Shown one piece after another: positions 33,950 through 60,328 of a stretch of DNA of 64,000 nucleotides (within the stretch, counting starts at the first letter, position 1; each line of letters begins with the position of its first letter). The DNA comes from Blasia pusilla (taxonomy: Eukaryota): NCBI GenBank assembly GCA_050084515.1, contig CM114271.1, positions 47,554,001 through 47,618,000 on the forward strand, read 5' to 3'. The translations under genes were made by a program, and so were the position numbers. The notes under the pieces are model-generated. The model did no database searches and had not been told where the DNA came from. It saw nothing but the letters and a program-made list of their open reading frames with translations.

Positions 33950-35900
33950 GTCCGCGTGAAACCTTGGCATTGAGTCTAGTATCTCTTGGAAATCACACCA
34001 TGTGTCAAAATCTTGGATGAATTCATCAAGATCAATGGTCTTCACTGCACTCGAGAAATGATGCATACCCATGTGGCTCATGTTGTCCATCTCTCCCTCC
34101 CCACACAACACTATCTCCATTTGCGATCTCACACTAGACCCGTTGTCTAATGATGACGATGGTCATCATTGGACAACGGGTCTAGTGATCGTAGTTGGGA
34201 TGGTTTCTCAAAAATGATCCTCCATATCTCTGGCTACTGTGTATAATGTCAATGCCATTGATTTGGCATCGAGTAACCTCAATGCCATAGCGGAAATCTT
34301 CTACTATAGGTGCTCTATTTGAGTAGCCATCCCAACCTCACGCCTTGAGTCTCCCTTGACTTGTCTAGGTGACGGACCTCTACCTCCTCCACGGGCATAT
34401 CCCCCACCCTCATGGAAAAATCCTTTCCATGTCCCCCTATCAGATCACCTGGTGCACGAACTCTATGCCCACCCAGACCGCCAACTCGCTCTGGTCCTTG
34501 GTCCGGACGTAACTCAGGGTGTAAACTAAAATACCTCGTGCGTGTATGACCATACCACTGACAATGGTCACACTGGTATACTCCTAGTTTCGGCCCATCT
34601 ACTCCTCTAGGCTAGGGCATGCATCCACTACCTTGATGAGTGCAATCTTATTGGCGATGGGCTTCTTGACATGCCCATCAAACACTTTGGAGGCAGTTGC
34701 TAATCCGTATATGACGGCATGAGTCTCTATGGCACATGCTCGTAGTAACCTCCCTAAGCTCGCGGTGCCACACTCATATTTCAAAATCCATGTTGCTTCA
34801 TTGGTGGTGCAAGAAATCGTGACTACTCTCACGCATGACTCATGACTATTACACTCTCCTCGGCCATGTTGTGCTAAAAAGAACTATGCCATCCCAAAGA
34901 TATATCTCAACGTAGGTAAGGTGCGCATCAGAAGTACTGCATCCCTCACCCGTTTCTGTATGTCTTATTCTAACATCCCATACCATGCTTGAATAACCTA
35001 GGCCTCTGTCATCCCCTAAGTGATGGTAGTCAGAGAACGCATGCGAGTAAATGCCTCCCGCAAACGCTCCCTTGTGCGCCTATGGAAGTTATGGATGTTG
35101 TGCAACTTCTCAATCCATACCCCTTGGTGTTTTTCCGTAACTCCGCAAAGAATTCAACCAGAGGGTTGAAACTAGGAAAAACCCCCTACTAGACAATGCA
35201 ACTGCTTGAGTCAACTAACCCTCCTTGAACCTCACTAGTGGCAGACAAAGTAGCCTCCCCTAGGTCCTCCTCCTCACCTAGAAATCGCTTAGTCCATGAC
35301 ACGTAATGTGGATCATAGTGGAGTCATCACGCCTCAATCTCAGATGCATACCTCAAGGAAAAATCATGTTAATCATCCATGTACCCCTCTCTAGGTGTTG
35401 GAACATCTCGTTCCATGTTGTAAAAGGATTAAACTCTCTAAAGTTCCTAGCCTTTTATGAGTCATACTTACTCCTAAACTAGGCAATGAAGTGGTGTAAC
35501 TCTATGGTATCCACAACTCCCAAAAACCTACGCGATCCTCTATCCTCGTCGTCCATATCGTACACCCACACAGTAGGACCACTCATTACGTGCGATGATG
35601 CACTAAAATACTCCCCCTCTATATCCTTTCCCTTGTGTGAGGATGATATAGAAGGAGGTCGAGACGGTCCCTCATATGGAGCCCTCAAAACCTCCCACCT
35701 CTCTGCATAAACCCTCTAGAGCTACTCTCAAGCACACCACCTTGCCTCTCAAAGTCCCGGAAGGATACCGTGATGACCCCCATGCCCTTCTCACACGATC
35801 ACTCTCACTCTTGCGAGTAACCCCCCAATCACTCATCCTAAATATGCAACACTCAATCTACACTCCCTCTCATTGAGGCGTGTAATGTACGACAACCAAT
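33950..35900 (-). mobile_element. Rearranged, degenerate gag/protease remnants related to the element at 49931-59728
   Basis: ORF 33914-34132 (EMDNMSHMGMHHFSSAVKTIDLDEFIQDFDTWCDFQEI) matches gag at 51742 (EMDDMCHRGMRRFSGAVGTIDLDDFIQEVDTWCDFQEI). 35479-35688 (RRFLGVVDTIELHHFI) is a second gag N-terminal fragment, and 34599-34832 resembles the protease C-terminus. Confidence 0.7.
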
Positions 35901-44300: not shown

Positions 44301-44945
44301 CCATGAATGAGAGTTCTCCACGGCCAGGTTGTCGAGGAACCCGAAACCAGATCGTAGCCTTGGATAGTTCTCCTTGGGAATTCGTGCGTCTCTTTCATCC
44401 ACCATCCCGGCCACGCAGGGTCGAGAGTTGCTCGCTCTTCTTTTCGACCTTGCTGACCGTTTCTCCACCGGCCGACTGCCCTCAGACCACGCTGAGTTCC
44501 TAGCCGCCCGCGGAGTGCGCTGTTTCCCGGAAGATGTGGTTGATGATGCAGCGCTGTGTGTTCTCGGGCTGATGTTCTCCCCGGAAAACTGACTTCTAGC
44601 TCCGCATCCGCACTTGAAAGAATCGTAGCGAAACTTGTCTAGCGGTGCAGCGTAAAACCTCTCCGAATGTAGGTATGAGGTGCGCCCTTGGGTTTTGGAC
44701 CAACCTCTTGAAGTGGACCTATCGATGCAGAAGTTTTTCAGCATTCTCGGCTCTTTCTTGGCAATCAAGGCATGGTGATTAGGGTTCACAGATCGAGAGC
44801 CAAGCCCCACTTCTTTCTGGGAGAGGCCACTCGAGGTGCCGTAGATATTGCTCGCCTCCCACTTTGTAGACTTCTTCTTCACAATAGCGACGTCATGATC
44901 CACCGAATTCCTCTCGAAAACCAGAGGATGAACCAGAGCACTCAT
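41380..44945 (-). CDS. Mitochondrial carrier family (SLC25) protein, aspartate/glutamate carrier (AGC1/citrin)-like, with ~460-aa N-terminal extension; exons ~43449-44945, 43074-43199, 42170-42574, 41380-41556
   Basis: Three carrier signatures PX[DE]XX[KR]XR: YPLDTVKTRMQ, NPMEIVKVRLQ and TPLDVIKTRLQ. AGC-type peptides PQLVGIAPEKAIKFTVNE, ARDIPSTAIFF and ARVLKTSPQFGITL. GT-AG introns are in frame. Confidence 0.85.
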
Positions 44946-47294
44946 GATTCTTCCCAACCCTCCGACTTCACCTCATGAACTACCGCCCGCAGCAGAATAA
45001 CGCCGACGTGATTCGCGCCTCGGCGGAGGAAAAATTAGGATTCGATTTCAGTACAAATGTATTTGTGGGAATTCCAACAGTGCAGTAGCTACCTTCAGAC
45101 AGGCCGTGCCTTTCTCGGAGTCCCAGATCACCCACCGAGCGTCGTCCGAAGACAGCAGCAAATTGGATACCGAATGGAGAAGGCGAGGTCAGTCACCACA
45201 TTTCGTCAATTGAAGAAAGTGGGCTAGTCCCCAATAGCGGGACACGATATTGGTCTATCGGAGAATGAGCACAGTTCGCGCACCGACTGCGGGAAGAGCA
45301 CCTTCAAAATCCCTCGCTCGCTGTCGTCAATTGCCACCGGGAAGACGTTCCAGCTCTGACTGAGAAACTACCGCTTCTGAAAGACTTCTGAATTCCTCGA
45401 ACGCAGAAAAAATTGACTACGCTGTGCGATTCTCTGATCACGAGGTCCTCGCGATCCCAAAAAACCCAAACTTCTTTCTCTTGAACCCCGTGACGCTCTC
45501 CGAAACCGCGACCTTTGCAGAATCTTCTCCAATCTTCCTCCAAGCTCTCTCCGAGTGTACGTCGGCCTTTCAACACTGCAGTTCTAGTTCAACGAAAGCC
45601 ATCGACCGCAGCCACTGATCCCAATTTCCCGTCAGCACCGCAATTTCACACCTCATCAGAGCACCCGTCGCGTCTACCATCCCCGCAATATCTCAAAATC
45701 CATCTCTCGGACCGTCTCAAAACCCGGCGCGACAAGGACGACCGAAGACGGGCTTCCAACGTTGCGCGGCAGAATCAAGAAGAATCAGGGTCAAGCAATA
45801 ATCGCAACAGTTCATTGAGATTGACAGAGACTGGCAGCTCTCGAAGGGTGAAACTGAGAGAACTTGCAGAACCCTTTAAGAAAGATCTGCGTGATGTCAT
45901 CTATTGTGACAAAAGGGGTCCATTTCTCTGTATTGTACTTTCCGGAGATCGTTTCATCGTCCGTCCTCTTTCCCGTTCTCAGAGGGGGTGATGGGAGCCG
46001 TCAGATTTCGTCCATCGACGGTGAAAAGTCGTGGCTTCACCAGGTATTGACATCACTCGCGCACGGGCGCTCCAGATCCTTAGGAAGTCGAAAGTGAGCG
46101 CAACGCGTGGCACTGGTGTAGGAGATCTCCAGATCGGAAGACAAAAGTGGATGTCAGGATTTCGCCCGCGCCATCGCCAGCGCGTTAGTCACTGGCTCTC
46201 GCAGACGATAACCCGACGGCGACTCTCTACCCATCTCTCCGTTCCACCGTCGTCCTCATGACGGCGCAAGAGGAGCCGTTAGTCCCTTGTCGGTGACCCA
46301 CGCCACCTCGTAGGGAAATTCCCTCCACGTAGGCTTTTTCTTTCCCTTCTCTTTCCTTTGAAGCTTTCAGGGGCCTTTTCCATGACTAATGGAATTAACC
46401 TTCGAATTTGAATATGTCGCAGCTCCTGATTGGGCCTGGGCATAGCAGGAACTCCTTGTGAAACATGAGTTCGATTGTAGAATAAGAATAACGTGGAACG
46501 CTATAATGTAAAATAAAATAAATGCTATATTTGGTTTGTTTGTAAACCGTGTTCACGTTCAAGTCATGGGAAACCTAGGTTGCTAGAGGTCTTCTTTGTT
46601 GTTAGAGTTGGGGCCCATTGCCTTAGTTTAAATTTATTTATTTTTTAGTCATGAGGTGGGGTTGTTTCTTTAACTAAGTGCACATGCTCCTTTTTTTTCA
46701 ATTTTTCTCTGCGTGTATTTTCCCATCTTCTTTCTCCATGATCTTTCTTGGTCTTCTTTTTATGGCATCTTTCTTTGAGTGACCATCCACCTTGCTTTAC
46801 AAATTCACCTAGTGGCTAGAAAATATTTCTTATCTTCATGCTAAAATCTTTTTCATATGATTCGAGATATTCTCCACATAGAACACGTGAATTAAAGATC
46901 TAGAACTATCTCCCAACCACAACCAGAACTACTTTGATCCATCACAATTGAAGTGAGAGAAAATATTGGGAGCCATTTCCTTTTCTACGTTGGTTCTTCT
47001 AAAATTCACCAAATCACACTTATTTGCATTTTTTTTTCCCGTTTCAAATTGCTTTCTTTATTTTTAGAGCTACGTAGTTAAATTTCAAAAAATTGATTGC
47101 AAATAACACCTTCATTTTGCTAGACCCCATTACAAATAGAATATGTAAAAAACTTAAATCAAATGTGCACTAAGAAAACTTAGGAAAATAAGTACAAAGA
47201 TAGTTTGGATGAGTGTACTACTAAAATAAGAAATTTTGTGGTTAATTATTGATTTAAATTTTTAATTTCCATCATTTTTAATTTATTAATTATG

Positions 47295-47668
47295 CGACCA
47301 TGGATCACCTAGTCACCTACGCATATAAGTTATCATTGAAGAAGGTTGTTTTTAAGGGGAAGAGCTTTTTGGCTCTTCCCTAAGCTATAAGAGAGGGAGA
47401 GATGGCATTCTCAAGCCATCTTTCTCATGTTGGGTCTTTGAAGTAGCTCTCTTGCTTGGATTATAGTAGGAAGTAGGGTGTTAGCGCCTAGATTCCCTCA
47501 TAACATAGGGTGGATATGGTTCAATATAACGATGTAGATTCGACGAGGTATGTTGGCCATATGAGTCGCTTTTACTTTGATTTTTTTGTGTGATCTTGGT
47601 ATATATAGGTGAGTATATTTTGTTTGTATGTGGATCTACCCGTGTGTTGGGAAGATTGGTGATGACAT
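47295..47668 (+). repeat. Old A-B copy of the split-repeat family
   Basis: ggggaagagc...ctataagagagggagagatggcattctcaagccatctttctcatgttggg...gatttttttgtgtgatc...gggaagattgg aligns with ~59300-59670 across the A/B junction. Confidence 0.7.
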
Positions 47669-47849
47669 GCGCCTATTCTCTTGAACGTCGATCTTATGCA
47701 ATGCTAAAGCTTGTGTTTAGTAGGACACCCTCATATTGTTGATCTCCATCCAAACACACTACATTACATCTGGTTTGAGTCCATCAACCTTACATTTCCC
47801 TAAGTTCCTAACCCCTTACTTCCAACACAAACATGCGAGGAAGGAGAGT

Positions 47850-49258
47850 GCTTAGCTAGCGCTACAGTGTGGTCCATGACACATTTAAGGTGCTATCTAT
47901 TTGGTAACCCTTTCATACTTATCATTAATCATCAGCCGTTGAGATCAATGATAAGTCAAGATGGCTAAACCAGGATGCAGTTGGGTCGAGTCGCAACCCA
48001 TACTCGAGTCAGAGAGACAATACAGGAGTTTGACGGCACGGAGAGAGTGATGAGGAGATGGTGCCCGGTTGGCATGCATCTGCCTTCCTTTGTTGGTTGA
48101 CTACATCAAGTTAGCAGTAGGTGGTGACTTTAATGATGGGTGAGATGATGAGTCTCCATATCCAGAGGTCAATGAGGAGACAATGGGTAATCGTGATATC
48201 CATAATGACATGGAGTTTTTGGAGTTCCTACGTAATGACGTCATAGCAATGTATAGTGAGTGTTAGGGAGCATAATTGGATCCTATAGAGAGCCAAGAGG
48301 TTCAAGTAGGAGGGGACACACCTTTTTTGAATGTAGGGGGATGATAGAGTACGAGTGGTGCCTCATCTTTCCCAGCAAGCACATGTAGTGCGACATGCCC
48401 ACGAGGAATTGGGGCACTTTGGTATAAAGCGTCCTTATAGCTTACTCCACCTTAAGTATTGGTGGCGCAACATGCATACTGAGATTCAATAGTTTTTAGC
48501 CAAGGGTATGGTATGTGACCAAGTGCGAGCATCCTTCAATGCTCCCACTTCACAGTTGCATCCATGGCTTGCAGCGAGGACATTTGAGGGATTGAGACCT
48601 ACAGTTGCCATGGTTGGCCATGGGGTATTGCTTTAGTTGGCAGACATTCTTTGCATTGTTTGCGCCATACCTTATGCTCTATGGGAGGGAGTTGGCCTTA
48701 CTTATAGCTATTCAACGTAACATGGCAGAGGTTTTGGATCTTGATGACCTAGATATTTGGGTACAAGCATGTTCTCAGAGGGCGGAGCTTTTTTGTAGAG
48801 TTATGCCCATTGCATTTGAGAATTTAGCTATTGCTCACCATAGGGATACATTGAGGTATGCTTTCATTTGTGGAGGGGGTTATTGCCTAGGGATTAGGAT
48901 GCTCCATGTTGAAGATTATGTGTATTTACACCATGCGGAACCCATCACTATAGGACGCACGATTTTGTATGTGCGTGAGGTGTTATCGCATGGAGTGCTT
49001 ATTTTGGAGGGACAGTATGGTATGGTTTGGAAGGATCGTGTGCACAATTGTGCGCCATGTTATCTTCAAAATGTGGATAAGATAGTGGATTTGATCGTAG
49101 CAATGGTATGGGCTTGAGGTGTATGTTGCATGGATTTGCGAGGGGTGCAGTCACCAGTTGGTGTGTGATGGTTGTTCTCGAGGGTGACATACATCGTGTG
49201 TGACACCCCCTCTTGATGCAATTCCCACGAGACTATGCTTATGTCCTAGATGTGTATA
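47850..49258 (+). mobile_element. Older, internally deleted copy of the RNase H-integrase-PHD region of the same retroelement family
   Basis: Nucleotide similarity to 57030-58893. ORF 48605-49117 (LDLDDLDIWVQACSQRAELFCRVMPIAFENLAIAHHRDTLRY) matches 58072-58548, with a decayed PHD at ~49118-49258. Confidence 0.85.
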
Positions 49259-49930
49259 TGTCGCGACCCTCATAACCAAACAACACCAAATAGGCGCCAA
49301 GCGGAACATCAAACCACTAGTGGATTCATAGGGCCTAAGTCTTGGTTTACATTTGGTCCAGGTTTCCTAGTTCGCGATCATAAACGCGGGAAACAAACAA
49401 CTCAATTCCACGTTTCGTCTCTTGGACTTTTCCAAGAGACCTCTCCAAAGCGCAATCATAGTAGCATGATGCTTAATGTCACCATAGGGCGCACGATGAT
49501 CATGCTTTGGAGAGGTCTTTTGGAGAGGTCTCTTGGAAAAGTCCAACAGACGAAATGCGGAATTGAGATGTTCGTTTCATGCGTTTGTGGTTGGGACTAG
49601 GAAACCTAGACCAAACGGAAATCAAGACTTGAGATGAGTTGAGTCTAGGAAGGTTGGTTGCCAAAGAGGTGAGAACCAGTTTTGGAACATGAGTAGCGTT
49701 TGGGGATTTTGACTGTATTTTGGACCATAACATTTAGTTCCAAAATGCGTTTGGGAAAAATAAGATGGCATTGAAAATCTTATGTTGAGAAAATTCCAAC
49801 GCACCAAAAATCTTAGCAAACGCACAAGGATCGGTTGAGATATTGGCCGAAAATAATTGTGAGAGCAATTGGGTTGAGGGCCAATTTGAGGGGCCCAACT
49901 TTCTTTCCCTAAAGTTAGGGGAAGGGCGGG
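49259..49930. repeat. Family Z fragment containing a ~113-bp inverted repeat; abuts the left end of the main element
   Basis: Starts TGTCGCG. 49337-49450 and 49518-49630 are reverse complements of each other. Homologous to 23400-23870. Confidence 0.65.
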
Positions 49931-50376
49931 GATCAGCCAAGATCTATCGTGGATAGGGCGTAGGAGCCAGCAGACTATCTTGAGTGTAACTATGTCCCAC
50001 GACGTCGGATGAGGTTGAGGATAGGTCCATTGTGTGAGGAACTTCGTTTCTGACAACTTTCATGTTGAGGTCTTTTACAGCCGGGTGACTTGTTGACCAG
50101 GTCATCCACCCTTGGTAACTTGTGCGCACAGGTTACAAATGGGAGGGCTATTTTTAGGGTTTAGGAACCCTATATAAGAGAGGAAGATGGCTTTCCTAAG
50201 CCATTTTTCTCATGTTGGGCTGTTGGAGCACCTCCCTTGTATGTGTGTGAGATAGGACTAGGGTGCTAGCGTCCGGATTCCTTGATAGCACAGGGTGGAC
50301 GAGGCTCGATATGCCGATGTAGATTGAGGAGTGGAGTTATACGCCGGGTGTGACGTTTTTACTACTCTTTATTTTT
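49931..50376 (+). repeat. Repeat A1 (5' terminal repeat; first ~18 bp missing)
   Basis: Aligns with A2 from gatctatcgtggataggg to gtttttactactctttattttt. It is not followed by B. Confidence 0.9.
50171..50177 (+). promoter_or_regulatory. TATA box of the retroelement promoter in repeat A
   Basis: ccctatataagagagg is identical in A2 (~59385); ctataagagaggg occurs in the older copies at ~47386 and ~59993. Confidence 0.65.
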
Positions 50377-50390
50377 ACATGAGAAAGATG
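50377..50390 (+). other. Primer-binding-site position; self-complementary to 50202-50215 (putative self-priming site)
   Basis: ACATGAGAAAGATG pairs with CATTTTTCTCATGT (one G-U pair) 31 nt downstream of the TATA start. No TGG tRNA-type PBS is present. Confidence 0.7.
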
Positions 50391-51704
50391 TCAGGGGGCT
50401 GGTGGGAATTCGTTGTTTGCAGGTAGGCAAGCGAGTTGCCTTGGTCAGGAGCCCGTGGAGACGTTGGTTGGCGTCGTATTTGTCATTTTTTTTGTTTGCA
50501 AGGCCGTGGGCGGAAGCGCTGTCCGTTTTTCTCAAATTTTGTTGGTGCACGGGTATTGGGGACATCGGCAGAGTGTAGTACGGAGTGGGCGTCGGGTGTA
50601 CGCGAGTGAGGGTGTCGAGAGAGAGAAGAAAAGAGAGTTAGGTCTTGTAGCCGCTGGGGGCGCTGACGGGCGTGTAGGTTGGCGGGCGCGGACAGACGGC
50701 AGCCCATAGGGGTGCGGCCCCCCCCCCCGTGCGGGCATTTAGGGCCCAAGGGGCTGCATAGGGCCGCGTGCCAAGTTTCCCCCCTCCAACATGGTAGGAG
50801 TGGATGTGGTGGAGTTGTAGGGGCAACATGGTAGGGGCAACGTGGTTGCGCATGGGCACCGTGGTGGCGGGGAGGATGATGACCGACATAGTTGGACAGC
50901 GGACGTGGATGATGTTGGATGATGTTGAGCTACGTGGTTGAGAGTGCGGATGTGGTCGGGGTCATGTTCACGTGGGCGGACATGGCGTATGTGGTAGGAG
51001 TGGATCCGACATGGGTGAGTTCGGTTGCGCAGTGGAGAGTTTTGCGGGACTTAGTGTCTCACGAGCGTGGATGGGATTCGCGATAGCACTTTGTCGGTTG
51101 TTACGAGTAGGTTGGAGGACGACTCATTAGTTCTTCAATGACTGGGAATTGTGAGCGTTGTGATGGGGACACACGAACCTACACTGACGGGAGGTTTGAC
51201 GTGTTGGTCGAGGAGAGTGTCGTGTTGGGGAGATTGTCATATCACGTGGAGGAGTGCATGTTGATGGTATAGCAGGTTGGAGGGCGTGATCAGGTTACCC
51301 ATTCGAGTCCCTTTTCCTGCACTTGTCGTGTGTGATTGAGAGTGCTGGGTATCGGGTAGTAGCTGGTGCTAGGTGGGTGCAGTGATGGTGATGAGTGTAG
51401 ATTCTTTTCATGTGTACCATGTTGGTGGATATACTGGCGGTTGCTTTAGTAGGGTCGCGTGTATGACCCGAGAGAGTGTCGCTAGGTTAGGTGAGTCAGT
51501 TGGGAGGCTCATGGTGAGCCCGAGTGTTGAGTGTGCGTGAGGCCGGGTATGTCATCACGGGATTGATGTTAGCATAGGTGAGCTAGTGAGGAGTGTGGGA
51601 GACTTGCGGTGTGTCTGAGTGCTTGAGCGGGTGAGACAGGGTTTGTCATCACGGCGTTCTTCCAGGGTTCGGAAGAACGGGGTAGTGCGAGCAGTAGTAG
51701 TGGT

Positions 51705-53714
51705 GTGACACGCAGTGGAGTGAGATACCGAGGGGTTACCAGTGAGGAGCTACCTCGACATCCATCCGTGGCTGGATCGTCATCATTGGACCTTTGGGTC
51801 AGTGATGAGATCGCGCATGAGAGACGAGAGTACTTGGCAGGAGATGGACGACATGTGCCATCGGGGCATGCGTCGTTTCTCGGGTGCAGTGGGCACCATC
51901 GACTTAGATGATTTTATCCAGGAGGTCGACACATGGTGCGACTTCCAAGAGATACGGACCCCGACACCGTTCAACCCTTTCATGGCATGGAAGGGGTTGT
52001 TCCAGCACTTGGAGGGTCCTCCGATGGATGACTACATGGAGTTTCGATCACTATATTCAATAGAGATCGATGCTTGGAGGATGTATTGGGCTCCAGGGTA
52101 TGTGTCCACTAGTGGTCGCGAGGCATATGATGGGATTATGAGAGGAGAGAGACCCACACCATCAGCCCGGAGACTAGATGGAGAGGAGGGCAGTGAGACA
52201 GGCGATGTGGCACAGACCTCTTGTGGTAGAGGGCCACCCGGCAAAGCCCCACAAAGGGAGTTCTTCGGCGGTTGGGGAAGAGCTACCAGGGCGTACGCAC
52301 CGACAAGCTTAAGAGTCTACAGGATTTTCAGCGACGATCGGGTGAAAGTCTGAGAGAGGCATTCACACGCATGAGGAGGCTGATCATTGCTACGTTTGGA
52401 GTGATTGAGGCGCAGTCAATCCAGTATTGGTACGGGGTTCTGGACCGAGAACTACGGAGGAGAGTCCAAGATGCGGTGCTGATTCACATAGCGAAGCCCA
52501 CGTTGAAGGTGGTCTTTGAGTTGTCTGAGCGTATTGAGCTCAACATGAGTGAGGAGCAGGTAGTGACCGCTGGATTTTCTCAAGAGTCGACGGGTCCACG
52601 AGCGACGGTGACCCCACAGGTGCCACAGCAAGCACCAGTACCACGGGAGCGGGCCAGGGTGCCTAGAGAGTAGGGCGGGTACCGTGAGCCTATGAGGAAA
52701 CGACCCGTACCTACATATGTTGCCTAGCAAGGACCGATGTGGTCTTGATGGACGTGTGGAGGGGCCCATAGGCAGAGAGATTGCCCACAGCATGGAAGAG
52801 GACCACCAGCGCCTCTAATTTCTCAGGAGCCACAGAGGATGGCCCCACCACAGCACCAGTGTGACCATTGCCACAGATATGGTCACACTAGGGATAGATG
52901 TTTTGACCTTCGTCGAGGGGCACGTCCGGAGGTAGGCCGAGGGCCTGGGGGTGGTCATCTTGGAGGAGGTTGGGGAGTTCTTCCTGGACGTGGTGGTAGA
53001 GGACCACCACCAGCCAGAGGAGATGGAGCAGGAGCACAAGAGCCGACACTTCTCTTACGCATCGATTAGTTGGAGCAGAGGATTGCTGCCATGACGATGA
53101 TGCAGCTTAGGGAAGGCACGGAGCTACGAGCAGCTAGTGTGACTCCAACTTCTACCTCTTACCCTAACCCGGGTGAGGATCTCGCAAAAATGGGATTTAT
53201 GTGTAGTGCAGCCCAGGTTGAGGCAACTGCAATGGTGACTCGGGGTGCTGCGAGAGGCACCGAGCCATCGAGAGGTAGAGTTGAGATTGACCCATCAGAG
53301 GGGACCGATGGGCGGCAGGCCAGGGTTCCACAGTCATTCACATTGTCGGAGGCACTACGCACACCATCGATGGTGCCTCGACGACCAGCGGTGCCTATAG
53401 CTCAGACACCTACATCGACATCACGAGGAGTTGGAGTGACAACTCCTATGCCGGCTCGAGTGGAGTCAGTGTCGACCATAGTGTTGGAGGTGGCCACCAG
53501 AGTGAGTCAGACTCCACTATTTTCTGCCATAGAGTTGGCGACGTTGGGAGTTGGACCAGCTGAGGTGTTCCGGTTGGCCGCCACGTTGTGTGAGCGTGGA
53601 GAGATGACCGCTTCTTGTTCAGAGGTAGTTGAGGAGGTGGTGGACTTGCCCTCAGAGCCGGTGCTCAGGATGTTTCCCATAGAGTCATGGCATGCGGCGC
53701 GGCAAAGTTGGTAG
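51705..53714 (+). pseudogene. gag: gag (capsid-like region plus CCHC zinc knuckle), disrupted
   Basis: Begins with TRSG. Retrotrans_gag-like FQRRSGESLREAFTRMRRL, zinc knuckle CDHCHRYGHTRDRC at ~52860-52901, then an RG-rich tail. Frameshifts and stops are present. Confidence 0.75.
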
Positions 53715-53716
53715 AT

Positions 53717-54100
53717 ATGCCAGCTCGATCGGCCATAGAGCGAGCAGTGGTGACACCTGGAGTAGTGTTACTGGATAACCGAGCTGGAGTATTTCGCTTG
53801 GTTAGTCCGACGGGGACTGTATACCACCCGCAGCCCGTCCTACTTGATTCGGGAGTGCAACCCTTGATGTTAGGGAAGGCGGCGTGTTTAGCGTTGGGGT
53901 TACGGAAGGCCGACATTGAGCCTTGTCCCTTCCAAATACAGACCTTGATTGGGGGCGTATCACCCACTCAGTATATGACTCGACATGAGATTGTTGTTAG
54001 AGTCCAGCTAGAGCATGCAATGGATAGTGCTATGGTGCGCACACGTGCGATTACGACACCAGCTGAGTTGTACGATGTGTTAGTGGGGAGTACAATGTGA
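53717..54100 (+). pseudogene. Retroviral-type aspartic protease
   Basis: VLLDSGVQPLMLG active-site motif and YDVLVG (D-x-L-x-G) C-terminal motif. Confidence 0.75.
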
Positions 54101-54565
54101 TATCCCCTAGGATTCATCCTTGACTTCTGGGAGGAGACCGTTGCTTATCGGCCAGGATGGCGGTCAGGTGACGGCCGGATGAGTCAGTTACCCATGCAGT
54201 TTGCGGGACAAGGTGGTCGATCACTAGGCGAGTCTGTGACCACGTTGGCGGCTTTCACAGGTAGTGTTAGCTGGCCAGGAGAGTTGTTGGAGGGGAACGC
54301 ACATGCGGAGGATGTCCCAGTAGCGGATAGTCCCACGGAGAGACAGGCCATGGCGGGTGTCTCTTCCCATGTTGGCAAGGCCTCTTCACCATTGTGGGGT
54401 ACGACTCGAGAGCTACAGAGGAGTGACGACGACCTCGTGAGGCAGGCGTGGAGTCATGTTTTTATCCCAGAGCAGCGAGAGTCACGTGGCAATCGGGCTC
54501 TTGGAGTGGAGACATTGACCCCACTGGATACCACACCCGTTGTGTGGCAGTGCCTAGAGGAGGGT

Positions 54566-55515
54566 GTTAGGGTGTTAGATCTTTTCAGAGGGATTAGCAC
54601 CGGATTGGCTGCACTATTGCAGGCGGGCATACGGGTGCATCAGTACCTTTATGTGGAGAGAGATGAGACCGCACGGCAAGTATCATTACGTCACGTGGCG
54701 AGATTGGTCTAGAGGTATCCTGAGTTGTTGCCGGTATCTGCAGTACGGGGATATCAGCATACACTACATGCCGACATCTCTTTGGTGGGGGCGCAGGATC
54801 TGGATAGAGTTGGCACCATTCATTTGGTGATTGCTGGATGGCCATGTTAGGGTCATTCATCAACTGGCCGAGGATTTGGATTGCAGGATCCGAGGTCAGT
54901 GATGTTTTGGGAGATGCTGCGAGTAGTACGACACTTGCAGGAGAGTCAGATATGTTCTCCAGGGTACATTTTGGAGAACGTGCCGTTGCTGGAAGACACT
55001 CGTGCACGTGTGATGACGAGTGTACATCAGGTGAGGTCTTGCTTGGGACATGCTGTGTTGTTAGATGCAGCGAGAGTTGGGTCACGTGCCCATCGTCCAT
55101 GACTGTGGTGGACGAACCTGATACCATCAGAGGTACTGAGTCGAGCATACGGTGGAGTCCAGAGAGCACCACATCTCACAATGGATGCTATTTTGGGCTC
55201 AGGGCGTCGATCTCAAGTGGTGATACGGGATGATAGACCACCGTTGGCTATGGCCAATAGGATGGGGGAGTTGAGGGCAGCCTTACCTACGTTGGTGAGC
55301 TTCCCAACATCCCATGCCTTTCGTCAAGGAGGGCTAGGCATGATTTGGGATGAGGTGACCGGAGCATTGGAGGAGCCTAGAGCAGATGAGCGCAAACGCG
55401 CCATGGGGTTTGCTACCGGTACTACGGCGGTGCCAGGGATGACTGAGGCATCCCGGAGATAGGTGTTGGGGCAGGCGATGGACCTCAACTGTCTTACATG
55501 GATAGTCAGCCTAGG
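54566..55515 (+). pseudogene. C5 cytosine DNA methyltransferase domain, DNMT3-like, in frame with the protease
   Basis: Motif I VRVLDLFRGIS; II YVERD; III ADI; IV LVIAGWPC*GHS (Cys 54845-54847); V GLQDPRS; VI YILENV; VIII DAARVGSRAHRP*LWWTNL; IX ERKRAMGF; X RR*VLGQAM. All lie in one frame with four in-frame stops. Confidence 0.88.
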
Positions 55516-55899
55516 TATGGCTGAGCAGAGACGGATGCAAGTGTCATCCATGCCGTCACGTCCACGAGTTGGACCATTGCCTATAGGGTCTGTACAGGCA
55601 TTGGCTGGGGGCGAGACGAGGAGAGATAGGCACCCATGGACTTCTTGGGACGTCGTTCGAGCAGAGAGTGTGAAGGCGGCTAAAGTAGCACATGTTCATT
55701 TTTTGGATGTGAAGCATGGTGTAGGAGGTCAGAGTGGAGTGGCTGTTGCGGAGGTGGCTAGGGTTGCTACATAGCAACCAAAACCGGAGGTTGCGTCCTC
55801 TCCAACTGAGGTCACGATGGAGACTTGGGAGCCTGTGACTGGAGTCTCAAGTTGATAGGAGGAGAGCGACGGCGAGTTCATAGGTTTCTGAGAGGGCAT

Positions 55900-57250
55900 G
55901 TCAGTTGTTTTGCATTCAGTATGAGAGACTTGGGTACGCTAAAGGTCCCGGGATACGGATTGAGTTGGCTAGTGATACGCCGATCTTTCGTCGATCCTAC
56001 AGGTATTCTGATATGGAGCGAGCCTTGATTCAAAGCAAGAGTCAGGACTTGTTGGAGGCAGGACTTGTGGAGTTATCACATGGGGAGTATGCATTTGCCA
56101 CAGTCATGCCGGCGAAGAAGGATATGTATGGCAATTGGACGGATAGGCGGATGTGTGGAGATTACCGTCCTATCAACCGACAGACGAGGTCAGATTGGTA
56201 CGCCATGCCTACTCCTGAGGAGATCTTTGATGCGGTAGGGCATGCAAAGATCTTGATATTTTTAGATCTCCGTCTTGGCTATCATCGCTGGCCCTATCGA
56301 GTTGGAGGACAGGGAGAAGACAACATTGTGGGGGATAGATTGGTTCGGGAGAGATTGCTTGTATCAGTGGTGGTTCTTACCATTTGGGTTGAAGAACGCG
56401 CCTGCAGAGTTTCAAAGAGTGATGGATAGGATTCTGGCTAGCTTGGATTTTGTACGATGTTACATAGATGATATTCTTATCTTCAGTTCCACGATTGAGG
56501 AGCATGAGCGACACTTGGAGGATGTGTTTAAGCGATTGCGATTACATGGGTGAAGTTACATCCGAGCAAGTGCAGATTCTTTCAGGAGCAGATTGAGTAC
56601 TTGGGACACACCATATACCCGAGTGGGTTAGGCGTTGATGAGCGAAGGTAGAGGCTATTTGCAGATTCCACGCCCTCTGAGATGTGAGTCGAGTTCGAGC
56701 ATTTCTTGGACTGGCCAACTTCTATCGATGGTATGTCAAGGGTTTTAGTGCGATCGCAAAGTCTTTGACCTTGTTGACGAGACTTGATCAGGTTTGGTTG
56801 TGGGGAGATGATCAGGAGCGAGCATTTTAGGAGCTCAAGGACAGGTTGTCGTCCTCACCCATTTTACAGAGACCGGTTAGGGGTCGCCCATTCCAATTAC
56901 ATACAAATTGGAGCATGTTGGGTCTAGGAGCAGTGCTTACTCAGAGGGATGACGAGGAGAGGGAGTTCGTTGTGGCCTACGCGAGCCGATCGAACAACAT
57001 TGCAGAGGTGAAGTACAGCTCCTACGAGGGAGAGTGCTTGGCCGCAATGTGGGCCGTGGCACATTTCAGGTGCTATTTATTCGGCAACCCTTTCACACTT
57101 ATCACTGATCATCAGCCGTTGAGGTGGTTGATGGAGTCCGACAAGCTTACGAGAAAGCTTGCCAGGTGGGCTCTATTACTGCATGAGTATGAGTTTGAGG
57201 TGGTTCATAGGCCAGGTTGGCTAAATGAGGATGCGGATGGGTTGAGTTGT
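55900..57250 (+). pseudogene. pol: Reverse transcriptase and RNase H (Ty3/Gypsy type)
   Basis: RT: RMCGDYRPIN, LDLRLGYH, PFGLKNAPAEFQRVMD, YIDDILIFS. RNase H: LHTNWSMLGLGAVL, AYASR, YSSYEGECLA, LITDHQPLRWL, NEDADGLS. Confidence 0.93.
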
Positions 57251-57649
57251 AACCCATGTCCGAGTCAGAGAGACGATACAAGAGCTCGATGGCACGGAGA
57301 GAGTGATGAGGAGATGGTGCCCGGTTGGCATGCATCTGCCTATCTTTGTTGGTTGACTATGGCAGGTCAGCCACAGGTGATGACTGTAGCGGTGGGGTTG
57401 GATGATGAGTCTTTGGATCCGGAGGTTAGTGAGGAGGTGACAGGTGGTTGTGATATCCATGACGATGTGGAGGTTGTGGAGTTCTTGCGCACTGGCGTCA
57501 TTGCAAGAACACTGAGTGCTAGGGAGCGGGATCGGATCCTATAGAGAGCCAAGAGGTTCAGGTGGGAGGGGACTCACATTTTGCGGGTGTGGGGAGATGG
57601 TAGGATACGAGTGGTAACCCATCCTTCCCAACGAGCACCTGTAGTGCAA

Positions 57650-58893
57650 CATGCCCATGAGGAGTTGGGACATTTTGGAGTAAAGCGTACTTACAGCTTA
57701 CTCTAGGTTCAGTATTGGTGGCGCGGCATGCAACTGGGGTACAGCAATTTGTGGCTAGATGTATGGTATGTGACAGAGTGCGAGCATCCTTCAATGCTCC
57801 CACTCCGCAGTTACATCCTTTGCCGATTATGGGTTTAGGTTATCGGTGGAGTTTAGACTTTGCGGGACCTTTGCTATTGACGGGGCGTCATAATAGGTAT
57901 GTCCTGGTCATGGTGGAGCATTTCTCCAAGTGGATAGAGTTGGTGGCACTACCAGACAAGGCAAGCAAGGGAACAGCTTATGCGTTTCTAGATCGTGTGC
58001 TTAGTCACTTTGCTGCACCGACGGAGGTGTTGACTGACCAGGGTACCGAATTCAGGGGAGAGTTTTAGGCCTTGTGTGATCAGGGGTTGATAGATCACCG
58101 CACCACGTCCAGAGATCATCCTGAGGCGGATGGATTGGCGGAGAGAGTGGTACAGACGGTGAAGAGAGGATTGCGCAAGTATGGCTTGCAGCGGGGACAC
58201 TTGAGGGAGTGGGACCTACAGTTGCCATGGTTGGCTATGGATTATCGCTTTAGTCGGCACACATCCTTGGCATCATTTTCACCGTACTTTTGGCTCTTTG
58301 GGAGAGAGCCAGATTTACCTGCAGCGATTCGAAGTGACATGGCGGAGGTGTTAGATCTTGATGATCGAGATGTGTGGATACAAGCATGTTCTCAGAGGGC
58401 AAAAGTTTTTCGTAGAGTTATGCCTATGGCCTTTGAGAACTTAGCTATTGCCCAACATAGAGATACATTGAGGTACGCGACCATTCGTGGAGGAGGTTAT
58501 TGTCCAGGGATTAGGAGGTTTCATCCTGGAGATTACGTGTATTTATAGCACGCGGCACCCACGAGGCTAGATGTCACTGCAGGGCGCACGATCCTACGTG
58601 TGCGTGAGGTATTACCGACCGAAGTCCTCATGTTGGAGGGACGGGATGGTATGGTTTGGAAGGATCATGTGCGCAATTGTGCGCTATGTCATCTTTCGAA
58701 CGTAGATGGGACGGTGGATCCGAGCTTGGCAGTGGTACCTGCAGGCTTGAGGTGTATGTTGTGCGGATCTGCGAGGGGTGGAGCCACCATATTGGTATGT
58801 GATGGTTGTTCTCGAGGGTGGCATATGTCATGCCTGAACCCCCCTTTTGATGTGGTTCCCACGAGACGATGGATGTGTCCGAGATGTGTATAG
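57650..58893 (+). pseudogene. DDE integrase (HHCC + rve) with C-terminal PHD finger
   Basis: HEELGHFG...CMVC zinc domain; catalytic region WSLDFAGP, LTDQGTEF, ADGLAERVVQTVK; FHPGDYVYL; C4HC3 finger CMLC...LVCDGCSRGWHMSCLNPP...WMCPRC then stop at 58893. Confidence 0.9.
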
Positions 58894-58935
58894 GGTAGTA
58901 GGTCATGTCAGAGAGATGTGATATTTTCTATCTGG

Positions 58936-58970
58936 AGTTGGGGGGATCCAACTGCCAGCTAGGGGGGCGG
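58936..58970 (+). other. Polypurine tract AGGGGGGCGG preceded by a small hairpin (agttgg-ggggat-ccaact)
   Basis: Lies directly upstream of B1. The same arrangement is conserved at ~37668-37700. Confidence 0.7.
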
Positions 58971-59728
58971 TTGTGTGATCTCCATGTATATGTATGAGTT
59001 GATTTTTTTACATGTGTGGATGGACCCGTGTGTGGGGAAGATCGATGTTTTGTGGTGTAGATGTGACCAGCGATGTATGTTGTGTAGCGATGTGTATGCG
59101 CACGACAACTGTCTCATCTGAGTAGCCGATAGGCCGAGATCTATCGTGGATAGGGAGTAGGAGCCAGCAGACTATCTTGAGTGTAACTTTGTCCCACATT
59201 GTTGGATGAGATTGAGGATAGGTCCATTGTGTCAGGAATGTCGTTTCTGACAACTTTCATATTGAGGTCTTTTACAGCCGGGTGACTTGTTGACAGTCAC
59301 CGCCCCTGGTAACTTTGTCAGGCACGTAGGTTACCAAGGGGAGGACTATTTTTAGGGGAAGAGCCTTTTGGTTCTTCCCAACCCTATATAAGAGAGGAAG
59401 ATGGCTTTCCTAAGCCAATTTTCTCATGTTGGGCCGTTGGAGCACCTCCCTTGTATGTGTGTGAGATAGGACTAGGGTGGTAGGGTCTGGATTCCTTGAT
59501 AGCACAGGGTGGACGAGGCTCGATATGCCGATGTAAATTGAGGAGTGGAGTTTTAGGCCGGGTGTGCCGTTTTTACTACTCTTTATTTTTGTTGTGTGAT
59601 CTCCATGTATATGTATGAGTTGATTTTTGTACATGTGTGGATCGACCCGTGTTTGGGGAAGATCGGTGTTGTGTGGTGTAGATGTGACCAGCGATGTATG
59701 TTGTGTAGCGATATGTATGCGCACGACA
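58970..59728 (+). repeat. 3' terminal structure B1 (58970-59107) - AC - A2 (59110-59590) - B2 (59591-59728)
   Basis: B1 and B2 are both 138 bp with 6 mismatches by eye. B ends CGCACGACA and A starts TGTCTC. Confidence 0.92.
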
Positions 59729-59730
59729 AC

Positions 59731-60328
59731 TTAGTTAGCTGACTTGTAGAGTTCTACAGCGTTGACACATAGAATGTCAACAAGTTGTTTAGGTGTAACT
59801 TTTACCTGAGATGTTGGATAAGGTTGGCGACAGGTCTATTGCGCCATAAACATCATTTTTGAAGAAATCCCTATTTTGGTCTTAGTCAGTCAAGTGACCC
59901 CTTGATCGAGTCAACGGTCACCCGATGACCTGTGCATACAAATTACCATTTGTAGCTATTTTTGGGGGAAGAGCCTTGGCTCTTCCCAAGGCTATAAGAG
60001 AGGGAGAGAATGGCTTTCCCAAGCCATATTTCTCATGTTGAGCTTTTGGATCACCTCTCTTGCATATGTGTATTGGAACTAGGGTGCTAGCGTCCGGATT
60101 CCCTCATAAGAGAGGGTGGATGTGGCTCGATGTACCGATGTAGATTCGGGAGTGGAGTTGGCCGCGTGAGCCGTTTTTATTCTAATTTTGCCGTGTTGTC
60201 TCAATATACATGCTTGAGTTCATTTCTTGTATGTGTGTGGATCGACCTGTATATTAGGAAGATTGGTGTTGTATGGTGTGGATGTGATCATCGATATGGA
60301 TTATGTAACAATGTGTATGCGCACGACA
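59731..60328 (+). repeat. Diverged A'-B' copy of a related subfamily, directly abutting B2
   Basis: Aligns loosely with A2-B2 along its length (gggaagagcc...ctataagagagg...ctagggtgctagcgtccggattcc) and ends gtgtatgcgcacgaca at 60328. Confidence 0.8.

What the first reader, a model, noticed from the sequence alone, without database searches (positions are those of the whole stretch)
54566..55515. Gypsy retrotransposon with a DNMT3-like cytosine methyltransferase built into pol between protease and RT
Seen: C5-MTase motifs I-VI and VIII-X in order and in the protease reading frame, including the catalytic PC (GWPC), ENV and DAARVGSRAHRP(R)LWWTNL, flanked by PR upstream and RT downstream. Established: motifs VIII-X of this form are typical of the DNMT3 family, and ordinary plant Ty3/Gypsy pol has no methyltransferase. 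From memory, DNMT-carrying retrotransposons have been reported in dinoflagellates and a charophyte alga, so the concept has precedent; I cannot say whether this land-plant Gypsy lineage is described. Inference: the MTase was a protease-released pol subunit packaged in the particle that methylated the new cDNA or the insertion site.
Basis: partly seen in the sequence, partly recalled or inferred. Interest (0 to 1): 0.9.

Follow-up and report, generated by a model that had tools for sequence, protein, structure and literature searches.

The report
Liverwort Gypsy retrotransposon carrying a methyltransferase
This is a decayed copy of a jumping gene in a liverwort genome that carries its own DNA-methylating enzyme among its replication genes, an arrangement first described in one alga and shared here by relatives in liverworts, mosses and green algae.

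Summary
Window 54563-55525 (+) encodes a complete, collinear C5 cytosine methyltransferase domain. It lies in the protease frame and is broken by four in-frame stops. Its nearest solved relatives are DNMT3A/B/C.

It is not a one-off capture. The order PR-DNMT-RT recurs in 14 Marchantia polymorpha proteins, one Sphagnum protein and one Closterium protein. It also recurs in 46 of 80 metagenomic loci, and 24 more are compatible. DNMT, RT-RNaseH and integrase trees are congruent. Non-synonymous divergence is far below synonymous divergence.

The host is a liverwort. The element also has a PHD-finger integrase and DIRS-like split direct repeats, A-internal-B-A-B. The same repeat layout is published for KnitGypsy-Dnmt3 of Klebsormidium (PMC5890265).

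This copy is dead. Sibling copies are numerous and weakly transcribed.

What the enzyme does is unproven. Self-methylation of new cDNA is the leading inference. The Klebsormidium enzyme gave no activity in yeast, which its authors call inconclusive.

Verdict: a new land-plant member of a known kind, of moderate interest.

The parts
49936..50376 (+). 5' terminal repeat A1. Its first ~25 bases are missing compared with A2.
   Evidence: It matches 59133-59590 at 88.5% counting gaps. Substitutions are 29 of 438 aligned bases, K2P 0.069. Alignment.
50377..51843 (+). Untranslated leader between A1 and gag.
   Evidence: There is no homology to relatives' proteins before 51844. Relatives also have a leader of about 1.1 kb or more.
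51844..53639 (+). gag with a CCHC zinc knuckle (52860-52901). It is split over two frames and carries in-frame stops.
   Evidence: tblastn of M. polymorpha P0002 gives 67% and 45% identity. CCHC pattern. No Pfam hit at E<=0.01.
53699..54235 (+). Aspartic protease region with D-S-G at 53846-53854.
   Evidence: It is homologous to the protease part of P0002, P0009 and P0018. In the intact relative P0036 the matching region hits Asp_protease_2 at E 2.8e-04, below Pfam's cut-off. The window piece itself gets no Pfam hit at E<=1.
54236..54562 (+). Linker between protease and methyltransferase, in the same frame.
54563..55525 (+). DNMT3-like C5 cytosine methyltransferase domain with motifs I to X in linear order. 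Four in-frame stops lie at 54710-12, 54848-50, 55100-02 and 55460-62.
   Evidence: It differs from relatives at 6 of 51 columns that are at least 90% conserved in 53 relatives: two stops and four substitutions, one of them at a motif I glycine.
55526..55892 (+). Linker between methyltransferase and RT, containing a frame change.
55893..56648 (+). Reverse transcriptase (YIDD at 56461-56472), spread over three frame pieces.
   Evidence: RVT_1 E 3.9e-16. 73-80% identity to P0009. Motif.
56642..57586 (+). RNase H and the connecting region, with three in-frame stops.
   Evidence: RT_RNaseH E 1.9e-33 and RT_RNaseH_2 E 1.1e-30.
57661..58716 (+). DDE integrase core, with two in-frame stops.
   Evidence: rve E 7.4e-13. 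46-47% identity to algal P0023 and P0025.
58747..58893 (+). PHD finger at the integrase C-terminus, followed by the pol stop codon.
   Evidence: PF00628 E 4.3e-10. Nearest solved sequences are the CHD4 PHDs, PHF12, DPF3 and KDM5B PHD1.
58960..58969 (+). Polypurine tract directly upstream of B1.
   Evidence: Sequence read. A run of G stands in the same place in all 5 relatives examined.
58970..59132 (+). Repeat B1.
   Evidence: 95.7% identity over 141 bases to B2.
59133..59590 (+). Repeat A2.
59591..59750 (+). Repeat B2.
59751..60328 (+). A further, more diverged A3-B3 unit. The block ends with the same short terminal motif as B in relatives.
   Evidence: 58970-59728 matches 59591-60328 at 75%. 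End sequence.

Best explanation
WHAT IT IS (high confidence). The finding is the methyltransferase domain of a dead copy, about 10.4 kb long, of a Gypsy-type retrotransposon in a liverwort genome. The layout is: repeat A1, leader, gag, protease, DNMT3-like methyltransferase, RT, RNase H, DDE integrase, PHD finger, polypurine tract, then repeats B1-A2-B2(-A3-B3).

The methyltransferase is an inherited, integral part of the element's single gag-pol reading frame. It has co-diverged with RT-RNase H and integrase. The copy belongs to the streptophyte branch of a large green-lineage group of DNMT-carrying Gypsy-like elements. That branch includes Closterium, Marchantia and Sphagnum and has the order PR-DNMT-RT. 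The other branch is seen in chlorophytes of the order Sphaeropleales and has the order RT-RNaseH-DNMT-IN-PHD.

The published KnitGypsy-Dnmt3 of Klebsormidium is the closest described relative. It shares the odd A-internal-B-A-B repeat layout.

HOW IT WORKS (inferred, about 0.35). The enzyme is translated as part of Gag-Pol, so it is present where cDNA is made. It most likely methylates the new cDNA or the fresh insertion. The PHD finger would steer the integrase to chromatin with a given histone H3 tail state. Together these would place the new copy in a chosen epigenetic state.

What is shown: domain identity, position, inheritance, selective constraint, and transcription of sibling copies. 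What is not shown: catalysis, substrate, protease release and packaging.

This copy itself cannot make the enzyme.
For: Identity:
- PF00145 scores above its cut-off.
- The single sequence against the PDB hits DNMT3C/B/A first, at 1.3e-07 to 1e-05. DRM2 follows at 1.3e-03 and HhaI at 8.6e-03.
- A 17-sequence profile gives DNMT3A 2.3e-22, DNMT3C 6.4e-21, DNMT3B 4.9e-20, tobacco DRM 2.9e-12, DRM2 6.1e-09, HhaI 8e-08 and DNMT2 4.4e-07. No DNMT1 appears among the 58 hits.
- Motifs run in linear order.

Family trait:
- 26 of 8000 scored candidates hit. 14 are M. polymorpha proteins at 55-73% identity, one is from Sphagnum fallax and 11 are unnamed.
- P0009 reads PR-DNMT-RT-RNaseH and P0002 reads gag-PR-DNMT.
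- Closterium P0040 reads zf-CCHC, protease, DNMT.
- P0036 is one unbroken 2188-aa reading frame with zf-CCHC, protease, DNMT, RT, RNaseH and integrase.
- Domain order in 80 metagenomic loci: PR-DNMT-RT 46; PR-DNMT then contig end 15; contig start then DNMT-RT 9; DNMT alone 6; RNaseH-DNMT-IN 2; deletion forms 2.

Inheritance:
- DNMT (54 rows), RT-RNaseH (42 rows) and integrase (38 rows) trees each separate the two architectures by one branch, with SH-aLRT 99, 100 and 99.
- The DNMT and RT-RNaseH trees, the two that were drawn, give the same branching order on the PR side. Adding Closterium keeps the split.

Constraint:
- Window against 33 loci: pN 0.21-0.34 against pS 0.67-0.77.
- Within the two identity tiers the DNMT ratio (0.60 and 0.39) lies between RT (0.40 and 0.35) and protease (0.71 and 0.48).

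Host:
- A ubiquitin hydrolase exon is 92% identical to M. polymorpha, 91% to M. paleacea, 88% to Calypogeia and 87% to Riccia.

Repeats:
-, and the legend of Fig. 4c of PMC5890265.

Transcription:
- 110, 101 and 125 RNA reads from three runs lie on 53600-58900. Nearly all are 95-99% alike and nearly all on one strand.
Against: - No assay shows that any Gypsy-borne DNMT3 methylates DNA. The KnitGypsy enzyme gave no methylation in yeast, and the authors call this inconclusive.
- No host DNMT3, DRM, CMT or MET1 sequence and no Klebsormidium sequence could be placed in my trees. 'DNMT3-like' therefore rests on ranked similarity to solved structures. Kinship with KnitGypsy-Dnmt3 rests on the shared architecture and repeat layout described in a figure legend.
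- The Pfam hit covers only motifs IV to VI.
- The protease has no Pfam support in the window.
- The trees are unrooted quick searches, and Closterium joins another long branch.
- Almost all PR-side loci are broken. In 78 loci the longest open frame through the DNMT centre is mostly under 450 aa; the best are 847 and 728 aa. Current activity of this branch is therefore uncertain.
- Within-tier dN/dS of 0.4-0.6 includes neutral decay after insertion.
- Synonymous sites are saturated in the window comparisons.
- The RNA reads come from sibling copies, at low depth.
- The 5' end of this copy is truncated and abuts another copy, so no target-site duplication can be read.
Confidence: 0.85

Rival explanations
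1. One-off capture or nested insertion: a host DNMT3 gene, or a fragment of one, landed inside this single copy.
For: Only one DNMT copy lies in the window, and the neighbouring related copy lacks its 5' half, so the window alone cannot decide.
Against: - The same slot, frame and flanking linkers are found in 14 M. polymorpha proteins, in Sphagnum, in Closterium and in 46 of 80 loci. A further 24 loci are compatible.
- The DNMT tree mirrors the RT-RNaseH and integrase trees.
- No repeats bound the domain.
Confidence: 0.01
2. The domain is kept for a role other than DNA methylation. It could be a DNA- or chromatin-binding module that helps targeting, or an RNA methyltransferase acting on the element's transcript.
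For: The KnitGypsy enzyme was inactive on DNA in yeast. The same paper raises RNA methylation for its LINE-borne enzymes. The pairing with a PHD finger fits a targeting role.
Against: The catalytic Pro-Cys, the ENV motif and the Arg-rich motif are among the 51 columns that are at least 90% conserved in 53 relatives. A pure binding module would not need them. The yeast result is declared inconclusive, because human DNMT3B also failed there.
Confidence: 0.2
3. The enzyme acts in trans on the host genome or on competing elements rather than on its own cDNA.
For: The family is high-copy in this species: 46491 contig pieces were laid in one DNA run. It is transcribed. The published discussion considers such side effects in Symbiodinium.
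Against: Nothing here shows protein or activity. K. nitens has an ordinary plant-like methylome despite its copies. Marchantia has its own MpDNMT3b, which accounts for non-CG methylation in sperm.
Confidence: 0.15
4. The broken frame is a host DNMT3 pseudogene that merely lies next to retrotransposon debris.
For: None beyond the presence of stops.
Against: It is continuous in frame with the protease for about 2.1 kb. It has no introns. Its best relatives are polyproteins.
Confidence: 0.01

Closest known systems
KnitGypsy-Dnmt3 of Klebsormidium nitens (de Mendoza et al. 2018, PMC5890265; passages, sections 10 and 11 read; figures and supplements not seen)
   Same: A DNMT3-related, non-rearranged, intronless methyltransferase sits inside the Pol polyprotein of a Gypsy-type element. 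The repeat layout is 'the same as that of a DIRS retrotransposon' (A-coding-B-A-B). The host is a streptophyte. There is evidence of purifying selection.
   Different: The host here is a land plant, a liverwort. I could not see the order of domains in the Klebsormidium element, nor whether it has a PHD finger, and I could not compare sequences. The paper speaks of an acquisition 'in the K. nitens lineage', whereas relatives here span liverworts, mosses, Closterium and chlorophytes.
SymbioDIRS-Dnmt3 of dinoflagellates (same paper)
   Same: DNMT3-type domain in Pol. A-coding-B-A-B repeats. Two coexisting domain orders within one group. These enzymes were shown to methylate CG de novo in yeast.
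   Different: Those elements use a tyrosine recombinase and are DIRS elements. This one has a DDE integrase, and relatives carry 4-bp target-site duplications. The paper regards the acquisitions as independent.
Host de novo methyltransferases DNMT3A/B/C, PpDNMT3b, MpDNMT3b
   Same: These are the best solved matches. Motif order is linear. Motifs IV, VI and VIII to X are shared.
   Different: There is no PWWP or ADD domain and no plant N-terminal domain. It has no introns, is embedded in gag-pol, and is only distantly similar (profile E 1e-22 against 1e-50 to 1e-160 among element copies).
Chromoviruses (Ty3/Gypsy elements with a chromodomain after the integrase; PMC6317226, passages)
   Same: A histone-reader module is fused to the integrase C-terminus of a Gypsy-type element.
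   Different: REXdb clades were not tested. My recollection that the Chlamyvir clade carries a PHD finger was wrong.
EpiLTRs (bioRxiv 10.64898/2026.05.21.726589; passages)
   Same: LTR elements that combine DNA methyltransferases with a chromatin-reader domain.
   Different: Those carry an adenine methyltransferase plus a DNMT4-related enzyme and a chromodomain, in euglenids and other protists. The preprint itself sets them apart from 'streptophytes (Gypsy-DNMT3)'.

Membership tests
C5 DNA cytosine methyltransferase (Pfam PF00145) | Profile match above the curated cut-off | tested here: met
   33.8 bits against a cut-off of 22, E 3.3e-08, residues 90-172 only. Intact relatives score 35-48 bits.
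C5 DNA cytosine methyltransferase (Pfam PF00145) | Catalytic motifs: I (AdoMet-binding glycines), IV (Pro-Cys), VI (ENV), VIII (Arg-rich), X. The motif numbering is recalled. | tested here: met
   All are present in order and conserved in the family. In this copy a motif I glycine is replaced and two of the four stops fall at conserved columns.
DNMT3 subfamily | Linear motif order, not the permuted order of DRM | tested here: met
   It aligns collinearly with DNMT3A/B/C from motif I to X. DRM2 aligns only over its second half.
DNMT3 subfamily | Groups with DNMT3 rather than DRM, DNMT1/MET1, CMT, DNMT2 or bacterial enzymes | tested here: inconclusive
   Ranked profile E-values favour DNMT3 by ten orders of magnitude over DRM, and DNMT1 is absent. 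No tree with host enzymes could be built.
DNMT3 subfamily | Enzymatic de novo methylation of DNA | not testable with these tools
   The only published assay of a Gypsy-borne enzyme was negative and is called inconclusive.
Ty3/Gypsy (Metaviridae-type) LTR retrotransposon | Pol order protease, RT, RNase H, DDE integrase | tested here: met
   The order is kept, with the methyltransferase inserted after the protease.
Ty3/Gypsy (Metaviridae-type) LTR retrotransposon | Two identical long terminal repeats, a tRNA primer-binding site and a polypurine tract | tested here: not met
   The repeats are split: A1 ... B1-A2-B2. A polypurine tract is present before B1. No obvious tRNA-type primer site follows A1; this was judged by eye only.
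Gypsy-DNMT3 (KnitGypsy-Dnmt3 type) | DNMT3-related domain inside the Pol reading frame of an element with Gypsy-type domains | tested here: met
Gypsy-DNMT3 (KnitGypsy-Dnmt3 type) | DIRS-like A-coding-B-A-B repeats | tested here: met
   Window. Relatives, 17 loci examined: complete in 5, partial in 4, not found in 8.
Gypsy-DNMT3 (KnitGypsy-Dnmt3 type) | Sequence kinship with the Klebsormidium copies | not tested
   No Klebsormidium protein surfaced. The paper's supplements are closed.

The most novel reading that the evidence does not exclude
The window's element may be one leaf of a very old, green-lineage-wide clade of Gypsy-like retroelements with these features:

(a) The clade captured a DNMT3-type enzyme once, before the chlorophyte and streptophyte element lineages split, and later moved it once within pol. 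It sits after the protease in streptophytes and after RNase H in chlorophytes.

(b) It pairs the enzyme with a PHD-finger integrase.

(c) It inserts with a DDE integrase from an intermediate that carries a repeat-repeat junction. That would explain the A-internal-B-A-B layout, the polypurine tract before B, the palindromic B|A junction and the 4-bp target-site duplications.

In this reading the published 'K. nitens lineage' acquisition is only the first sighted member.
Probability: 0.35. Interest if true: 0.7.

Novelty: new member of a known kind. Interest (0 to 1): 0.5.

Why it matters
Cytosine methylation is the host's main weapon against transposons, so a transposon that carries its own de novo methyltransferase is counter-intuitive. 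The one published plant-lineage case is an alga, where it was presented as lineage-specific.

The same kind of element turns out to be abundant and transcribed in a liverwort. It is present in Marchantia polymorpha, a genetic model with methylome tools, knock-downs and transformation, and also in Sphagnum. That makes an open question testable in a tractable land plant: what does the enzyme do for the element?

The two domain orders and the split repeats combined with a DDE integrase also bear on how such elements replicate and how pol tolerates new domains.

Tried and rejected
- Whole-genome search for other copies: no genome is held.
The natural M. polymorpha homologue gave only generic methylase clusters.
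- Structure prediction: not accepted twice. No fold or fold search was done.
- Naming Klebsormidium relatives: none surfaced.
- Rooting, or testing DNMT3 membership by a tree: no host DNMT3 sequence was obtainable.
- RNA holders in the run index: no RNA holder is listed.
- Horizontal transfer between mosses and liverworts: element identities between Marchantia and Sphagnum-like copies (72-75%) are no higher than between the window and Marchantia (69-71%), so there is no sign of it.
- Strong CpG decay: observed/expected CpG is 0.73 in the element and 0.66 in the DNMT against 0.77-0.94 in three host exons. This is a modest difference. The A1/A2 differences are not transition-biased, 13 transitions to 16 transversions.
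- The idea that the element supplies the only DNMT3 of liverworts: rejected, because MpDNMT3b (Mp5g09290) is a host gene.
- My recollection that the Chlamyvir clade has a PHD finger: wrong, it has a chromodomain.
- tRNA primer site after A1: none obvious by eye; not tested further.
- Target-site duplication of this copy: unreadable, because its 5' end is truncated against a neighbouring copy.
- Literature on split direct repeats in integrase-bearing Gypsy elements: the listing showed nothing relevant beyond PMC5890265 (listing only).
Full report
OBSERVATION

One reading frame runs from the protease region through window 55774 without a frameshift. Translating 54500-55771 with X at the stops gives 424 residues. 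The four stops lie at 54710-12, 54848-50, 55100-02 and 55460-62.

The quoted motifs are all present and in order. The translation hits Pfam DNA_methylase above its curated cut-off: 33.8 against 22 bits, E 3.3e-08. That match covers only motifs IV to VI.

Against the sequences of solved structures, the first 29 of 50 hits are DNMT3A, 3B or 3C. DRM2, HhaI and DNMT2 follow. A profile of 17 domain-sized relatives sharpens this ranking:
- DNMT3A 2.3e-22
- DNMT3C 6.4e-21
- DNMT3B 4.9e-20
- tobacco DRM 2.9e-12
- DRM2 6.1e-09
- HhaI 8e-08
- DNMT2 4.4e-07
- no DNMT1 among the 58 hits

THE ELEMENT AROUND IT

Mapping homologous polyproteins onto the window and Pfam scans of the X-read pieces give this order:
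- gag, 51844-53639, with a CCHC knuckle
- protease, with D-S-G at 53846
- methyltransferase, 54563-55525
- RT, RVT_1 E 3.9e-16
- RNase H, E 1.9e-33
- DDE integrase, rve E 7.4e-13
- a C-terminal PHD finger, PF00628 E 4.3e-10

The protease has no Pfam hit in the window. It rests on the motif and on homology to relatives whose protease region hits Asp_protease_2 weakly.

The copy is dead. The coding path changes frame at least seven times. It holds 14 in-frame stops, not counting piece ends.

In the methyltransferase it departs from the family at 6 of 51 columns that are at least 90% conserved in 53 relatives. Two of these are stops and four are substitutions, one at a motif I glycine.

HOST

A ubiquitin hydrolase exon at 8036-8887 is 92% identical to the M. 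polymorpha protein. It is 91% identical to M. paleacea, 88% to Calypogeia fissa, 87% to Riccia fluitans and 76% to Sphagnum. The window therefore comes from a liverwort close to, but not the same as, those Marchantia species. No genome is held for it.

A FAMILY TRAIT, NOT A CAPTURE

Named relatives:
- Searching longer proteins with the domain gave 26 hits among 8000 scored candidates. 14 are M. polymorpha proteins (55-73% identity), one is from Sphagnum fallax and 11 are unnamed.
- Their sequences show gag-PR-DNMT (P0002), PR-DNMT-RT-RNaseH (P0009) and gag-PR-DNMT-RT-IN (Sphagnum P0021).
- A Closterium sp. NIES-53 protein reads zinc knuckle, protease, DNMT.
- An unnamed 2188-aa protein, P0036, is one unbroken frame with zinc knuckle, protease, DNMT, RT, RNase H and integrase.

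Size of the group: the exhaustive representative search found 2578 proteins at E<=0.001, 754 at 1e-10 and 225 at 1e-30. Most are long polyproteins.

A scan of metagenome contigs found 371 pattern matches and 267 confirmed relatives, and kept 80 loci. Their domain order is:
- PR-DNMT-RT in 46
- PR-DNMT then contig end in 15
- contig start then DNMT-RT in 9
- DNMT alone in 6
- RNaseH-DNMT-IN in 2
- deletion forms in 2

TWO ARCHITECTURES

A second class carries the enzyme between RNase H and integrase, again with a PHD finger. It includes P0023, P0025 and 141 hits among 8000 scored candidates. Its named hosts are Monoraphidium, Tetradesmus, Hariotina and Enallax, all Sphaeropleales by my recollection. 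Its two loci have open frames of 2014 and 2033 aa.

The backbones of the two classes are homologous to the window's element: RT about 42%, RNase H 43-45%, integrase-PHD 46-47%.

Trees of the DNMT (54 rows), RT-RNaseH (42 rows) and integrase (38 rows) domains each split the two architectures by one branch, with SH-aLRT 99, 100 and 99. The DNMT and RT-RNaseH trees, the two that were drawn, give the same branching order on the PR side: P0036, then a 34-47% tier of loci, then L026 and L025, then a clade of 18 DNMT rows. That clade holds the window, M. polymorpha and Sphagnum-like loci. Adding Closterium keeps the split, though it joins another long branch.

These are unrooted quick searches. Rows with under 60% of a domain were left out.

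The enzyme has therefore been inherited with the backbone. Whether it was captured once and moved, or captured twice, cannot be told without host enzymes in the tree.

CONSTRAINT

Between the window and 33 loci of the nearer tier, non-synonymous differences are 0.21-0.34 per site. Synonymous differences are 0.67-0.77 and saturated. Ratios are 0.08-0.19 where computable.

Median dN/dS within the tiers:

| Domain | Nearer tier | Farther tier |
|---|---|---|
| DNMT | 0.60 | 0.39 |
| RT | 0.40 | 0.35 |
| RNase H | 0.40 | 0.34 |
| Protease | 0.71 | 0.48 |

These values are inflated by decay after insertion. The methyltransferase is about as constrained as the other pol domains.

TERMINAL REPEATS

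The window has A1 (49936-50376), then the internal part, then B1 (58970-59132), A2 (to 59590) and B2 (to about 59750). A further, more diverged A3-B3 runs to 60328. A1 and A2 differ by 29 substitutions in 438 bases. B1 and B2 are 95.7% alike.

17 relatives' loci were examined:
- 5 show the complete A1-internal-B1-A2-B2 layout (L036, L043, L049, L063, L042)
- 4 show part of it
- 8 show none

In those five complete loci:
- a run of G stands directly before B1
- the B|A junction pairs inverted ends, a 16-base palindrome in L036
- the outer ends are inverted
- 4-base target-site duplications are perfect in 3, off by one base in 1 and absent in 1

This is the 'A-coding region-B-A-B' layout that PMC5890265 describes for its DIRS elements. 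Its Fig. 4c legend says KnitGypsy-Dnmt3 shares that layout.

My reading that insertion proceeds from an intermediate carrying a repeat-repeat junction is inference.

STATE OF THE FAMILY IN THIS SPECIES

Three RNA runs carrying the same species label as the best DNA holder laid 110, 101 and 125 reads on 53600-58900. Only 5, 3 and 5 of these are at 99% likeness or more. Nearly all have the first mate on the minus strand. They therefore come from sibling copies, mostly in one orientation and at low depth.

At the first base of the second stop, 20 of 21 RNA reads carry another letter and read a sense codon.

One DNA run laid 46491 contig pieces, so the family is high-copy. Among that run's 48 places of difference, 30 are transitions where the window has A or T, and 10 are the reverse. 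This copy has drifted towards A and T.

WHAT IS KNOWN

PMC5890265 reports DNMT3 inside a Gypsy Pol in K. nitens 'lineage'. It finds Ka/Ks below 0.2 and no activity of that enzyme in yeast, which it calls inconclusive. It proposes that cDNA is methylated on reverse transcription. It does not mention Marchantia, a protease or a PHD finger in its main text.

Later texts speak of 'streptophytes (Gypsy-DNMT3)' and of DNMT3 embedded in retrotransposons 'in streptophytes and dinoflagellates', citing that paper.

Searches found no description of such elements in liverworts or mosses. Only listings were seen, apart from the papers named above.

Marchantia methylation papers list host enzymes only and show a host MpDNMT3b.

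MECHANISM

Shown:
- the enzyme is encoded in the gag-pol frame
- it is conserved
- it is co-inherited with the backbone

Inferred:
- it is made in or beside the particle
- it methylates new cDNA or the new insertion
- the PHD finger guides integration. Its nearest solved relatives are the CHD4 PHDs, PHF12, DPF3, KDM5B PHD1, PHF21A and AIRE. By my recollection these mostly read unmodified H3K4.

I give this about 0.35. The rivals are a non-catalytic or RNA-directed role (0.2) and action in trans on the host (0.15).

VERDICT

The finding is real and correctly identified. It is a land-plant member of the known Gypsy-DNMT3 kind, in a dead copy. Its value lies in showing that the kind is widespread in bryophytes, including a genetic model, and in the extra anatomy it reveals.

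Noticed in passing
window 47350-49258: A second, truncated copy of a related element lies directly upstream. It has an A-end plus B remnant (47350-47664), then RNase H, integrase and PHD (47840-49258), about 79% identical to the main copy. It abuts repeat A1, so the two copies form a composite.
   Followed up: partly
window 49337-49630: A 300-base near-palindrome (78.7% self-complementary) lies between the upstream copy's PHD finger and repeat A1. The main copy has only about 76 bases in the matching place.
   Followed up: no
window 33986-35541 (-): A gag remnant of a related element lies on the other strand, 38-57% identical to M. polymorpha P0002 gag.
   Followed up: no
loci L036, L043, L049, L063, L042: Relatives combine a DDE integrase with DIRS-like split direct repeats. 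They have a G-run before B1, a palindromic B|A junction, inverted outer ends and 4-base target-site duplications (perfect in 3 of 5).
   Followed up: partly
loci L054, L079; proteins P0023, P0315, P0338, P0347, P0353: A chlorophyte class carries the same enzyme between RNase H and integrase, in open frames of about 2000 aa. The Monoraphidium protein adds a Tudor-like domain after the PHD finger (PF21743, E 3.8e-05, below cut-off).
   Followed up: partly
window 58747-58893: The integrase ends in a PHD finger rather than a chromodomain. Its nearest solved sequences are the CHD4 PHD fingers, PHF12, DPF3 and KDM5B PHD1.
   Followed up: partly
loci L001-L080: Nearly all PR-DNMT-RT copies in the metagenome contigs are broken, whereas both RNaseH-DNMT-IN loci are intact. 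The nearer tier clusters tightly with the Sphagnum fallax protein P0021.
   Followed up: partly
window 1918-2454 (-), 6432-8887 (+), 42116-44972 (-): Host genes flank the repeat cluster: a WD-repeat-like exon (judged by eye), a ubiquitin C-terminal hydrolase 22-like gene, and a mitochondrial-carrier-like gene with a 516-aa exon (judged by eye).
   Followed up: partly
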